Position numbers: made by a program. Below, piece by piece: positions 16,801-19,800 of a stretch of DNA of 64,000 nt (position 1 is the first letter of the stretch; every line of letters begins with the position of its first letter). This stretch comes from Escherichia coli (GTDB taxonomy: Bacteria > Pseudomonadota > Gammaproteobacteria > Enterobacterales > Enterobacteriaceae): NCBI RefSeq assembly GCF_017348835.2, contig NZ_CP071375.1. One strand, written 5' to 3'.

Positions 16801-19800
16801 GCAACTGATTATTACTGGTGAGTATTGTCCTGAAGGTGTGCAAACAGCATTCACCCAAGAACAATATGATAAATTAATAAGATACATTAATATTTTCTTT
16901 ACTTTCCCGAAATGCGAATAATACTGTATATTATAAACTACATTACAATTTATTATTGAGCCCTATTCATACTGTTTAAAGAATAACAATACCCAGTGTT
17001 AGCTTTCCTAACAAATGAGTTTTACGCAAATATGTTGGCATCTTTTTTAACAGGATGCTCAGGTGAATGAATAGAATAACCGGTAGTAGCATTATTTCGC
17101 TTTAGCTGAGGATGGCGCATGAACGCCATCCTGCAGTAGCATTACTCTTTATTAAGGAATTTTACTGCCTTATCAGGGAAATCAGTAAACAGCCCATTTA
17201 CACCCGCTTTGTTATACAGAACATCATATAACTGATTCACATCAGTAGTGTATTCAGGCAGTTTATCTGACCGCACGGTATAAGGATGCACTACCAGTTT
17301 ATTCTGCTGAGCATCTTGCACCATGCCAGTGAGTTTGATATTACCCGGCTGCGATGTCTCCTCAATCAACATATGGTAATCTGGGCCAATACCATCAGCA
17401 TATTCCGCCACCTGTTTCATGGCACCCGGCTTAAACATCCAGTCATAGCTGTAATTAACCCAGCTTCCGTCCGGTTGTTTCTGCTGAGTTTCGTTCCAGT
17501 CGGTATAGGCAATCAGCTGTACCAGGTTGAGGTCCATACCCATTTTAGGTTCCAGCTCATTCTTAATACGCTTCAGTTCATCAGCATCAAAGCATTGCAG
17601 ATAAACTTTGTCGTCCTTACCGGTGTAACCATATTTCTTCAGCACTTCCAGCGTTTTTGCCGCAATATCCTTCCCTTCCTGATGATGGAACCACGGCGCT
17701 TTAATTTCTGGATAGATACCGATATTTTTCCCGGTAGAGTGATTTAACCCCTGAACAAATTCAATCTCTTCTTCAAAGGAGTGCACCCGGAAGTCGGACT
17801 TACCCATTGGGAAACGCCCCGGATAAGTCTGCACTTTTTTACCGTTTTCAATATCGAAACCTTCGGTAAATTTCAGCGACTTAATTTCATCCAGCGTGAA
17901 ATCTATCGCGTAGTAACGACCGTCTTTGCGCGCCCGATCCGGGAAACGATCGGCAACATCAGTAACACGATCGAGGTAATGGTCATGCAGAACAACCAGA
18001 TGGTCGTCTTTGGTCATCACCAAATCCTGTTCCAGATAATCCGCTCCCTGCGCATACGCCATCGCTTTTGCTGGCAGCGTATGCTCCGGCAAATATCCAC
18101 TGGCACCGCGATGGGCGATGACTATTTTTTCGTTGCTGTTCGCCGCCATTGCACTGCTTCCCATGACTATAGTGCTCATCATGATCGCCATGCTAAGGTT
18201 TTTCAGCGTCAATTTCATGCCATTAGCCTCCGTTGCGTTTTTGCAGTAATTCCTGATGGCGACGTTTTTCGCCAATCATCACAACAATCAACAAGATAAC
18301 CGCCAGAATGCTGCCGCCAATCATTACCATAAAGCCGCCATCCCAGCCGAAGAAGTCCACGGTGTAGCCAACAATCGCGCTCGCCGCCACCGAACCGCCC
18401 AGGTAACCAAACAGACCGGTAAAGCCCGCTGCCGTTCCTGCCGCTTTTTTCGGTGCCAGTTCCAGCGCATGCAGACCGATCAGCATCACAGGGCCGTAGA
18501 TCAGGAAGCCGATAACAATCATACAAATCATATCGACGGTTGGGTTACCTGCCGGGTTCATCCAGTAAACGATAGTCGCGATGGTCACCAGTGTCATAAA
18601 GAAGACGCCGGTTGCCCCACGGTTACCGCGGAAGACTTTGTCCGACATCCAGCCGCACAGCAGGGTGCCCGGAATACCCGCATACTCATAGAAGAAGTAG
18701 GCCCAGGAGGATTTATCCAGCGCGAAATGCTTAACCTCTTTCAGATAAGTCGGTGACCAGTCGAGGATGCCGTAACGCAGCAGATAAACGAACACGTTGG
18801 CGATGGCGATGTACCACAGCAGTTTGTTCGGCAGCACGTACTGCATGAAGATTTGCTTCGCGGTCAGCTCCTGTTCCGCTTTTTCGTTATAGTCGTCCGG
18901 ATAATCATTTTTGTACTCTTCGATCGGCGGCAAGCCACAGGATTGCGGGGTATCGCGCATCATCGCAAAGGCGAATAATGCCACCAGAATGGCGCAAAAA
19001 GCGGGCATATAGAGCGCCGCGTGCCAGTCATTGAACCAGGCCATCCCCAGCAGGAACAGCAGCGGCGGAATACCACCACCGACGTTGTGCGCACAGTTCC
19101 ACACTGACACAATGCCGCCACGTTCTTTCTGCGACCACCAGTGCACCATAGTACGACCACACGGCGGCCACCCCATCCCCTGGAACCAACCGCAGAGGAA
19201 CAACAGTACAAACATCACCGCAATGCTCGACGTCGCCCATGGCACAAAGCCCATAAACAACATCACTGCCGCCGCCAGAATCAAACCTGCGGGCAGGAAA
19301 ACGCGCGGATTCGAGCGATCCGATACCGAACCCATGATGAATTTCGAAAATCCATAAGCAATCGAGATCCCCGAAAGGGCAAAACCTAAATCACCGCGTG
19401 AGAATCCCTGCTCAACCAGATAAGGCATAGCAAGCGCAAAGTTCTTACGAACCAAATAGTAAGCAGCATAGCCAAAGAATATCCCCAGGAAAATTTGCCA
19501 GCGCAATCGACGATAAGTCGGCTCGATCTCCGCGGCAGGTAAGCGCGCTTTGTGTGGCGCTGGTTTAAAAATACTCAACATTGATAGCCTCCGTGGCCCG
19601 TGGTCTTATTTATGATTAACAGCCTGATTCAGTGAGAGAACCTGCCGTTTCTTGAGTTGCCGCGATGTTAAGAAAACATTCATAAATTAAATGTGAATTG
19701 CCGCACACATTATTAAATAAGATTTACAAAATGTTCAAAATGACGCATGAAATCACGTTTCACTTTCGAATTATGAGCGAATATGCGCGAAATCAAACAA

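What the first reader, a model, noticed from the sequence alone, without database searches (positions are those of the whole stretch)
17083..17145. Direct-repeat / inverted-repeat / direct-repeat structure at the glpQ 3' end (possible island boundary scar)
AGTAGCATTA occurs at 17085-17094 and 17135-17144, the second copy overlapping the glpQ stop codon. The copies flank a perfect 8-bp palindrome GGATGGCG-catgaa-CGCCATCC. The structure lacks the U-run of an intrinsic terminator and sits exactly where the AT-rich accessory block meets the conserved glpQ gene. That is consistent with a recombination or attachment-site footprint.
Basis: seen in the sequence. Interest (0 to 1): 0.35.

Follow-up and report, generated by a model that had tools for sequence, protein, structure and literature searches.

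The report
glpQ mRNA-end hairpin beside an insertion
The palindrome is the conserved stem-loop that marks the end of the E. coli glpT-glpQ messenger RNA, and the flanking 10-base repeat exists because a 1.7-kb strain-specific insertion, which carries its own worn-out copy of that gene end, joined the chromosome exactly at the foot of the stem-loop; this is ordinary, not a mobile-element attachment site.

Summary
AGTAGCATTA lies at 17085-17094 and 17135-17144, and GGATGGCG-catgaa-CGCCATCC at 17110-17131.

The window is E. coli: nrdAB-yfaE-inaA-MFS-LysR(yfaH)-[AT-rich block 15394-17108]-hairpin-glpQ-glpT.

The hairpin and the proximal repeat copy (the glpQ stop codon plus a 7-nt spacer) are not a scar.
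- They occur once per genome, in 4,254 of 5,426 complete E. coli genomes. About 1,160 more genomes carry a diverged form with compensatory changes.
- They are present in K-12 and other strains that lack the block, and in E. whittamii.
- In K-12, published Term-seq puts the primary glpQ RNA 3' end 4 nt after the stem. A Rho-dependent termination region lies 277 nt further on.

Only about 1,050 genomes carry the block. Its boundary is exactly the hairpin foot (17108/17109).

The distal repeat copy lies inside the block. It belongs to a roughly 60-nt degenerate second copy of the glpQ 3' unit: ACAGGATG, a second hairpin, then AGTAGCATTA (p<=0.0005). The block's other end holds a 69%-diverged copy of REP plus the inaA 3' end.

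The block therefore looks like a nested, degenerate version of the yfaE-glpQ interval, joined by illegitimate recombination. It has no integrase, no terminal inverted repeats, and no repeats flanking the block.

Interest is low.

The parts
17142..18218 (-). glpQ (glycerophosphodiester phosphodiesterase); the stop codon TAA is at 17144-17142
   Evidence: ORF list; RefSeq annotation of the 100%-identical strain PE164
17135..17144 (.). Proximal AGTAGCATTA, which is the glpQ stop codon plus the 7-nt spacer between the stop and the hairpin. It is native sequence and varies between strains (AGTAACATTA in K-12, AATAGCATTA in L007, AGTAGCAGCATTA in O157:H7).
17109..17132 (-). Hairpin #1: a perfect 8-bp stem at 17110-17117/17124-17131 plus an A-T pair at 17109/17132. 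As RNA in the glpQ sense it forms about 10 pairs with a 4-nt loop. It is the stem-loop at the glpTQ mRNA 3' end and resembles a Z-type REP.
   Evidence: dG -23 kcal/mol, z -5.3. Present in 4,254/5,426 genomes, one copy each. Two compensatory pairs in the B2 allele. Term-seq 3' end in K-12 lies 4 nt after the stem. 21/27 identity to the REP core, p=0.0007.
17095..17108 (.). The last 14 nt of the block (TTTCGCTTTAGCTG). They may be a stub of the last codons of a second glpQ-like gene: CGCTTTA against CTCTTTA, with an in-frame 3-nt difference.
   Evidence: alignment; conserved in all carriers examined. That it is a stub is inference.
17085..17094 (.). Distal AGTAGCATTA, which lies inside the block. 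It is interpreted as the stop codon plus spacer of the degenerate second glpQ 3' unit.
   Evidence: found only in block carriers
17050..17084 (.). ACAGGATG (17050-17057) followed by the remnant of hairpin #2 (17058-17084). The hairpin has decayed in this window but is intact (ACCGGTTA...TAACCGGT) in O157:H7 and PapRG alleles. The segment is collinear with the junction and hairpin #1 of block-less alleles.
15394..17108 (.). AT-rich block of 1,715 bp. It is an insertion relative to the outgroups and to block-less E. coli, with a 1-nt ambiguity (A) at each junction.
   Evidence: junction alignments; present in about 1,050 of 5,426 genomes; GC 0.33-0.37
15419..15547 (.). Degenerate copy of the native REP and inaA 3' end (native copy at 12392-12527), lying at the left end of the block
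   Evidence: blastn 69% over 113 nt, E=6e-12; alignment A1; REP part p=0.003
15851..16921 (+). 356-aa hypothetical ORF, the block's cargo. It is found only in Escherichia and matches no known family.
15541..15672 (+). 43-aa ORF annotated in RefSeq and conserved among block carriers
14507..15385 (+). LysR-family regulator, the intact form of the K-12 pseudogene yfaH. It converges on glpQ, and its stop codon is 8 nt from the block's left junction.
12392..12432 (.). Native REP between yfaE and inaA, the counterpart of the degenerate REP at the block's left end

Best explanation
Three things of different age are superimposed.

(1) The inverted repeat is the native stem-loop 7 nt downstream of the glpQ stop codon, in the short spacer between the convergent genes LysR/yfaH and glpQ. 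As RNA it forms a stable hairpin of about 10 bp with no U-tract. It most likely marks and protects the mature 3' end of the glpT-glpQ mRNA: transcription runs past it, Rho terminates further downstream, and 3'-to-5' exonucleases trim back to the stem. It resembles a degenerate Z-type REP, and glpQ in related genera is followed by REPs or canonical terminators.

(2) The proximal AGTAGCATTA is simply the glpQ stop codon plus the spacer before that hairpin.

(3) A 1.7-kb AT-rich block, found only in Escherichia, was inserted once between the LysR stop and the hairpin, exactly at the hairpin foot. The join was illegitimate, possibly helped by microhomology at AGGA. The block carries degenerate copies of the sequences that natively bound this variable interval: REP plus the inaA 3' end on its left, and ACAGGATG, a second hairpin, AGTAGCATTA and a few codon-like bases on its right. 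The distal repeat copy is therefore the remnant of a second glpQ 3' end brought in with the block. It is neither a target-site duplication nor an att core.

Shown: hairpin conservation, single copy, the mapped 3' end in K-12, the junction positions, and the homologies at the block ends. Inferred: Rho-plus-trimming as the route to the 3' end, the foreign or duplicated origin of the block, and the joining mechanism.
For: Hairpin and proximal copy without the block:
- K-12, strain 500111, and the outgroups E. whittamii and Escherichia sp. E1V33.
- 5,420 of 5,426 genomes match from window position 17109/17110 onward, but only 1,052 match the block side.
- The 41-nt hairpin query hits 4,254 genomes, with a median of 1 place per genome.

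Structure:
- dG is about -23 kcal/mol, z -5.3 to -5.6.
- 10 of 11 pairs are kept in all 7 distinct sequences. Two pairs show compensatory double changes, and slid controls pair at most 51%.

Function:
- Term-seq in MG1655 gives a 'primary' glpQ 3' end at 2,349,897(-), with 395,838 reads, and at 2,349,896 in another condition. That is 38 nt after the stop codon and 4 nt after the stem.
- A Rho termination region lies at 2,349,620(-), with Rho score 7.5 and p=8e-37.
- In other genera glpQ is followed at the same place by canonical terminators or REPs.

Block as an insertion:
- The outgroup junction GTAAGAC|AGGATGG is split in carriers into GTAAGAC|ATGAGA... and ...GCTG|AGGATGG.

Block ends:
- Left end: 15435-15547 matches 12415-12527 at 69%, E=6e-12, and the degenerate REP scores p=0.003.
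- Right end: the distal unit against the hairpin-#1 unit scores p<=0.0005.
- Hairpin #2 is intact in O157:H7-type alleles.

Single origin:
- No genome carries hairpin #2 without hairpin #1, or the tandem pair without the block.

No sign of mobility:
-.
Against: - The hairpin has no U-tract, and no experiment shows what makes the 3' end in this strain. The Term-seq and BCM data are from K-12, whose sequence after the stem differs.
- The Rho region is reported from 800-nt windows, so its link to glpTQ read-through is indirect.
- The right-end homology is short (8 + 10 + about 7 nt around an unrelated stem).
- The proposed yfaE-like stub at the left end is not significant (p=0.16).
- No donor or pure intermediate allele was found.
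- Why the block's ends reach only about 10-25 nt beyond its REP-like elements is unexplained.
- The covariation rests on a single diverged allele.
Confidence: 0.7

Rival explanations
1. The structure is an attachment-site or site-specific recombination footprint. The accessory block would be a small island that integrated at a specific site, with AGTAGCATTA as the duplicated core and the palindrome as a recombinase-binding element.
For: The block boundary coincides with the hairpin foot. The distal copy occurs only in carriers. The block is AT-rich and strain-variable.
Against: Both copies lie at the same end of the block, 50 bp apart, and none is at the left junction. The palindrome and one copy pre-exist in block-less strains and in outgroups. 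There is no integrase, transposase or any known domain in the block. It has no terminal inverted repeats and no phage or plasmid relatives. The proximal copy drifts freely between strains. The block is old, decaying, and fixed at this one locus.
Confidence: 0.04
2. The repeat comes from a local tandem duplication, by replication slippage, of the roughly 50-bp glpQ 3'-UTR unit (hairpin plus spacer). The event would be independent of the block, and the distal copy later diverged.
For: The period is exactly 50 bp. The two units align significantly. A tandem duplication at the glpQ 3' end does occur in another strain (133 bp in CUVET19-1426).
Against: None of the 5,426 genomes has the tandem units without the block. 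The central stems are unrelated (ACCGGTTA/TAACCGGT against GGATGGCG/CGCCATCC) while the flanks are identical, which gradual divergence does not explain well. This model also leaves unexplained the REP and inaA 3' copy at the block's other end.
Confidence: 0.15
3. The 10-bp repeat is a coincidence in AT-rich sequence next to an ordinary terminator-like hairpin.
For: The window has 13 loci with 10-bp direct repeats within 60 bp, more than a Markov model predicts. The proximal copy varies between strains, so there is no selection for identity.
Against: The similarity is not limited to the 10-mer. ACAGGATG upstream, ATGAA in both loops and CGCTTTA/CTCTTTA downstream are collinear, with p<=0.0005. 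The distal 25 nt are invariant in all carriers examined, including clade I.
Confidence: 0.08
4. The hairpin is a bidirectional intrinsic terminator serving both LysR/yfaH and glpQ, rather than an exonuclease barrier behind a Rho-dependent terminator.
For: It is a strong GC-rich stem between convergent genes. The RNA 3' end lies 4 nt after the stem. Related genera have canonical intrinsic terminators at this position.
Against: No U-tract follows the stem on either strand. A strong BCM-sensitive region lies 277 nt downstream on the glpQ strand. No + strand 3' end is listed at the hairpin in the Term-seq table passages retrieved.
Confidence: 0.2

Closest known systems
Stem-loops at the 3' ends of Rho-terminated mRNAs, which act as exonuclease barriers (described genome-wide by Dar & Sorek 2018, as cited in PMC7815308)
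   Same: A stable GC-rich hairpin without a U-tract lies just after the stop codon. The mapped RNA 3' end is a few nt after the stem. A BCM-sensitive (Rho) region lies a few hundred nt downstream.
   Different: Neither Rho dependence of glpTQ termination nor trimming back to this stem has been tested directly. All the data come from K-12, not from a block-carrying strain.
REP (repetitive extragenic palindromic) elements of E. coli, Z-type
   Same: The core is 21/27 identical to the Z-type REP consensus (GGATG..TGAACGCC..ATCC; p=0.0007). It sits in a 3' UTR between convergent genes. Klebsiella, Salmonella and E. albertii have true REP-like sequences after glpQ. By established knowledge, REPs stabilise upstream mRNA.
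   Different: It is single-copy, a perfect rather than bulged palindrome, lacks the outer GCC...GGC arms and the CTAC tail in the aligned orientation, and shows no similarity to the neighbouring Y-type REP. At most it is a degenerate derivative.
Intrinsic (Rho-independent) terminators
   Same: A GC-rich stem-loop immediately after an operon's last gene, with an RNA 3' end just after it.
   Different: There is no U-tract. The scan does not call it.
Integrative-element att sites and target-site duplications
   Same: A short direct repeat next to the edge of a variable, AT-rich segment.
   Different: The repeats do not flank the segment. There is no recombinase and there are no terminal inverted repeats. 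One copy plus the palindrome are ancestral.

Membership tests
Intrinsic terminator | GC-rich stem-loop | tested here: met
   8-10 bp stem with 6 of 8 GC pairs, dG about -23 kcal/mol, z -5.3
Intrinsic terminator | Run of U immediately 3' of the stem | tested here: not met
   glpQ sense: the stem is followed by CAGCUAAAG in the window and UCUCAUAUC in K-12. LysR sense: it is followed by GCAGUAGCAUUA. The scan does not call it.
mRNA 3'-end hairpin (exonuclease barrier after Rho termination) | Stable RNA 3' end mapped a few nt after the stem | tested here: met
   Published Term-seq in MG1655: 3' end at 2,349,897(-), 4 nt after the stem, classed as primary for glpQ. Not measured in a block-carrying strain.
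mRNA 3'-end hairpin (exonuclease barrier after Rho termination) | Rho-dependent termination downstream of the hairpin | tested here: inconclusive
   A Rho termination region at 2,349,620(-), 277 nt downstream, has Rho score 7.5 and p=8e-37. It is computed from 800-nt windows, so the link to glpTQ read-through is indirect.
REP element | Match to the REP consensus palindrome | tested here: inconclusive
   21/27 identity to the Z-type core, p=0.0007; no match to Y-type. An IUPAC REP pattern did not hit it, but it also missed true REPs in the window, so that test was uninformative.
REP element | Many dispersed copies per genome | tested here: not met
   One place per genome in 4,254 genomes; one match in the window
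REP element | Conserved CTAC/GTAG tetranucleotide next to the palindrome in the consensus orientation | tested here: not met
   In the aligned orientation the hairpin is followed by TGCAGTAGC, where REP has GGCCTAC
att site of an integrative element | Direct repeats flanking the whole inserted segment | tested here: not met
   Both copies are at the right end (17085 and 17135). None is at the left junction 15393/15394.
att site of an integrative element | Integrase or recombinase encoded at one end | tested here: not met
   The block ORFs match nothing in Pfam, NCBIfam or PADLOC
Transposable element with target-site duplication | Terminal inverted repeats and a duplication abutting both ends | tested here: not met
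   No inverted repeats at 15394/17108. The junction sequences differ.

The most novel reading that the evidence does not exclude
The block is a nested, xenologous (or very old paralogous) copy of the whole yfaE-to-glpQ variable interval. At each end it stops about 25 nt beyond a REP-like hairpin, and it was inserted precisely at the foot of the resident REP-like hairpin. If that geometry is not an accident, REP-like hairpins at the 3' ends of convergent genes would act as preferred break-and-join points for illegitimate capture of foreign DNA. That would be a structural route to gene gain that leaves short 'gene-end' duplications like this one.
Probability: 0.12. Interest if true: 0.4.

Novelty: new member of a known kind. 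Interest (0 to 1): 0.15.

Why it matters
It matters little beyond annotation. The work identifies the unannotated stem-loop after glpQ as the operon's mapped mRNA 3' end. It shows that the K-12 pseudogene yfaH has intact alleles elsewhere in the species. It also documents one well-resolved illegitimate-recombination junction at a hairpin foot, in a locus with at least five structural alleles across E. coli. The case is a useful caution: a repeat-palindrome-repeat next to an AT-rich segment need not be an att site.

Tried and rejected
- Rfam scan of 15300-17400 found nothing relevant.
- The IUPAC REP pattern search found nothing, but it also missed the true REPs later located in the window, so it is discarded as uninformative.
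- Two literature searches for a described glpQ terminator or for yfaH found nothing useful. One query was malformed.
- Looked for the block's donor:
  - Protein search of the 356-aa ORF returned only Escherichia, at 82-94% identity.
  - Plasmid and phage collections held nothing real.
  - blastn-short of the block's right end against 80 glpQ loci from other genera gave only chance 11-17-mers. One is a 17-mer inside an unrelated coding region of Klebsiella indica.
  - A metagenome scan for a donor-type continuation after the distal unit gave 0 hits. Power is low, because only one carrier contig exists in that collection.
- Searched 5,426 genomes for intermediate alleles, namely hairpin #2 alone or the tandem units without the block. 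None was found.
- Considered that K-12's ATGAGAC at the junction is a deletion scar of the block. This was rejected as unnecessary: carriers L007 and L090 have GTGAGAC, one substitution away.
- Considered a direct repeat AGAAAAGCCGGTAGAAG / AGAATAACCGGTAGTAG (15307 and 17073) as a block-flanking repeat. At 14/17 it is at chance level for a 2-kb region.
- Considered circular-intermediate and simple tandem-duplication models for the block. The order of parts they predict does not match the observed order (reasoning).
- Compared the inaA fragment in the block with inaA of other genera to place the donor. It is 65-69% identical to Escherichia and 63-65% to Citrobacter, which is not decisive.
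Full report
**1. The observation**

The sequence is as described.
- AGTAGCATTA lies at 17085-17094 and 17135-17144, and these are its only two occurrences in the window.
- GGATGGCG-CATGAA-CGCCATCC lies at 17110-17131. It is unique even when 2 mismatches are allowed.
- The second repeat copy ends with TTA at 17142-17144, the reverse complement of the glpQ stop codon. glpQ is 17142-18218 on the minus strand.
- No T-run follows the stem on either strand, and the consensus terminator scan does not call it.
- GC content drops to 0.33-0.37 between 15 and 17 kb.

Each element is weak taken alone. The window contains 13 loci with exact direct repeats of at least 10 bp within 60 bp, and about 10 loci with perfect 8-bp hairpins; a first-order Markov model expects 3.8 and 6.9 hits. 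The case for reality therefore rests on comparison with other genomes, not on counting.

**2. Where the window comes from**

The window is E. coli. It is 100% identical over 14000-18400 to strain PE164. The gene order is nrdB-yfaE-inaA-MFS transporter-LysR regulator-43-aa ORF-356-aa hypothetical-glpQ-glpT-glpA.

The LysR gene (14507-15385) is the intact form of the K-12 pseudogene yfaH.

The interval between inaA and glpQ is highly polymorphic in E. coli.
- MFS-LysR-block: this window and O157:H7. 711 genomes cover at least 80% of 14000-18400.
- MFS-LysR without the block: strain 500111.
- The K-12 arrangement, with the MFS gene and the 5' part of LysR deleted and no block.
- The same deletion with the block: APEC E19057, Ec-042-T20 and clade I TW10509.
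- A B2 arrangement with only 202 bp between inaA and glpQ: strain 536.
- IS1-disrupted variants.

**3. The hairpin and the proximal repeat copy are native glpQ sequence**

A 211-bp query across the structure matches 5,420 of 5,426 complete genomes. Only 1,052 of them match the block side. All the others begin to match at query position 120 or 121, which is window 17109/17110, the first base of the hairpin.

Block-less strains have the hairpin and the 10-mer right next to the LysR/yfaH 3' end.
- K-12...TTTGATATGAGAC AGGATGGCGCATGAACGCCATCCTGC AGTAACATTA CTC....
- Strain 500111 has the identical 10-mer.
- The outgroups E. whittamii and Escherichia sp. E1V33 also lack the block. They have glpQ-TAA-8 nt-CAGGATGGCGTTTTAAACGCCATCCTG directly abutting the LysR 3' end.

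The 41-nt hairpin sequence is found in 4,254 genomes, with a median of one place per genome and never on a plasmid. It is therefore not a dispersed repeat.

About 1,160 further genomes (B2, 536-like) have a diverged version, GGATAGCAC-ATAA-GTGCCATCC, at the same position.

Across 7 distinct sequences, 10 of the 11 stem pairs are kept in every sequence, and two pairs show compensatory double changes (A-U to C-G and G-C to A-U, both in the B2 allele). Partners slid by 1-3 columns pair in at most 51% of cells, against 93.5% for the real structure. That sample is small, and the covariation comes from one allele.

As RNA in the glpQ sense, the stem-loop folds at about -23 kcal/mol, with z -5.3 to -5.6 against shuffles.

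**4. What the hairpin does**

Published Term-seq data for MG1655 (Adams et al. 2021, PMC7815308, Supplementary file 1) list a 'primary' glpQ RNA 3' end at 2,349,897 (minus strand) in LB at OD 0.4, with 395,838 reads. A second condition gives 2,349,896.

glpQ ends at 2,349,935. The 3' end is therefore 38 nt past the stop codon, 4 nt after the last paired base (...CCAUCCUG UCUC).

Supplementary file 2 of the same paper reports a Rho termination region at 2,349,620 on the same strand, 277 nt further downstream, with Rho score 7.5 and p=8e-37. The authors note that Rho-terminated transcripts are trimmed by 3'-to-5' exonucleases, and that Term-seq ends within 500 nt of such regions are probably associated with Rho termination.

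The best reading is that the stem-loop is the stable end of the glpTQ mRNA, behind a Rho-dependent terminator. This reading is inferred, not tested.

In other genera glpQ is followed at the same place by one of two things.
- Canonical intrinsic terminators: several Citrobacter, Intestinirhabdus, Trabulsiella.
- REP-like palindromes: Klebsiella, Salmonella arizonae, E. albertii.

The E. coli hairpin is 21/27 identical to the core of the Z-type REP consensus (p=0.0007). True REPs of that type are present in the window near 10792-10917. However, the hairpin is single-copy and lacks the outer arms and the CTAC tail. I call it REP-like and do not file it as a REP. Rfam has no family for it.

**5. 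The block and its junctions**

With the outgroups as reference, the ancestral junction is ...TTTGA(A/T)GTAAGAC|AGGATGGCG.... In carriers it is split into ...GTAAGAC|ATGAGATTGATGAC... on the left and ...TTTAGC(T/A)G|AGGATGGCG... on the right.

The block is therefore 15394-17108, with a one-base ambiguity. It was inserted 8 nt after the LysR stop codon and exactly at the hairpin foot. The insertion removed the outermost C-G pair of the block-less stem (pair 18-44).

The block shows no sign of mobility.
- It has no terminal inverted repeats.
- It encodes no recognisable protein family.
- It has no relatives among phages. The one hit in the plasmid collection is a mislabelled chromosome.

Its 356-aa ORF occurs only in E. 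coli and Escherichia clade I, at 82-94% identity. It is frameshifted or IS1-disrupted in several strains. The block is therefore old and decaying.

**6. Why there is a direct repeat**

The distal copy sits inside the block, 14 nt from its right edge. The surrounding segment is collinear with the hairpin unit of block-less alleles: ACAGGATG, then a hairpin, then AGTAGCATTA, then CGCTTTA (against CTCTTTA in glpQ, with an in-frame 3-nt difference). The alignment scores 28-30 against 8.6 +/- 3.5 for shuffles (p<=0.0005).

The hairpin in this distal unit, ACCGGTTA-N10-TAACCGGT, is intact in O157:H7 and PapRG-04-4. It is partly decayed in Ec-042-T20 and TW10509, and strongly decayed in this window.

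At the other end of the block, 15435-15547 is 69% identical to 12415-12527, the native REP tail plus the inaA 3' end (E=6e-12). The homology extends through a degenerate REP at 15419-15452 (p=0.003). A further resemblance of the first 25 nt to the last codons of yfaE is only suggestive (p=0.16).

Both ends of the block thus carry degenerate versions of the sequences that natively bound the variable yfaE-glpQ interval. The simplest account is a single insertion of a diverged copy of that interval, either foreign or very old, into the resident interval. The cargo ORFs would take the place of inaA/MFS/LysR. On this account the distal AGTAGCATTA is the stop codon and spacer of a second, truncated glpQ 3' end.

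The right junction may have used AGGA microhomology, since glpQ reads ...TTAAGGAATT and the hairpin foot reads AGGATGG. This is inference.

Several results are consistent with one event.
- Every carrier examined, including clade I, has the same junctions and an invariant distal 25 nt. The proximal copy drifts: AATAGCATTA, AGTAGCAGCATTA, and AGTAACATTA in K-12.
- None of the 5,426 genomes has hairpin #2 directly on glpQ without hairpin #1.
- None has the two units without the block.

No donor was found.

**7. Rivals**

- An att site or target-site duplication is excluded on anatomy. The copies do not flank the block, there is no recombinase, there are no terminal inverted repeats, and one copy plus the palindrome are ancestral.
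- An independent 50-bp slippage duplication fits the exact 50-bp period, and a 133-bp tandem duplication of the glpQ end does exist in strain CUVET19-1426. It does not explain the unrelated stems between identical flanks, the absence of block-less tandem alleles, or the REP/inaA copy at the far end.
- Pure chance is unlikely given the collinear similarity.
- A Rho-independent bidirectional terminator remains possible for the hairpin's function and needs in vitro transcription to settle.

**8. Verdict**

It is wrong in its central claim, because the palindrome and one repeat copy are the glpQ mRNA-end element, present with or without the block.

This is an ordinary 3'-end hairpin plus an old illegitimate-recombination junction. 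Interest is low. The only mildly unusual aspect is the nested 'interval within an interval' geometry bounded by REP-like hairpins.

Noticed in passing
window 15419-15547 vs 12392-12527: The left end of the AT-rich block contains a 69%-diverged copy of the native REP and the inaA 3' end, which lie 3 kb upstream. The block therefore carries a pseudo-duplicate of sequence from the far side of the same variable interval.
   Followed up: yes
window 14507-15385 and 13165-14355: The LysR gene is the intact form of the K-12 pseudogene yfaH (NF007272 hit). An MFS transporter lies beside it. K-12 and clade I TW10509 share a deletion of the MFS gene and the 5' part of LysR. That deletion occurs both with and without the AT block, so all four combinations exist, which implies recombination between the two sites.
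   Followed up: partly
L004 4402-4404 (strain 500111): A one-base-shorter A-run shifts the LysR frame. The ORF becomes 299 aa and ends at the TGA inside the hairpin loop (CATGAA), so the coding sequence overlaps the glpQ 3' hairpin.
   Followed up: no
window 15851-16921: This 356-aa ORF is found only in E. coli and Escherichia clade I, at 82-94% identity. It has no Pfam, NCBIfam, PADLOC, phage or plasmid match. It is often frameshifted or IS1-disrupted. It contains an internal repeat of about 57 nt (16474-16530 vs 16819-16875, 71%).
   Followed up: partly
L093 1648-1900 (E. coli CUVET19-1426): There is a 133-bp tandem duplication of the glpQ 3' end, which leaves an extra truncated glpQ fragment annotated next to the full gene. 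It could be real or an assembly artefact.
   Followed up: no
window ~3940-4004, ~10770-10917, 12392-12432: Bona fide REP/BIME elements (Y- and Z-type) are present, including a cluster of four near 10.8 kb.
   Followed up: no
window 7001-8000, 27001-28000, 45001-47000: Other kilobase bins with low GC (0.35-0.42) suggest further accessory or horizontally acquired segments in the window.
   Followed up: no
L006 3654-4730 (O157:H7 SS NE 1040-1): glpQ is annotated as a pseudogene with an internal stop in this O157:H7 strain.
   Followed up: no
L009 (E. coli C21), L011 (E. albertii), L013 (E. coli SCPM-O-B-8794): These genomes have different glpQ C-termini and entirely different 3' hairpins or REP-like elements after the stop codon. 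The glpQ 3' end is thus a recurrent recombination breakpoint across Escherichia.
   Followed up: partly
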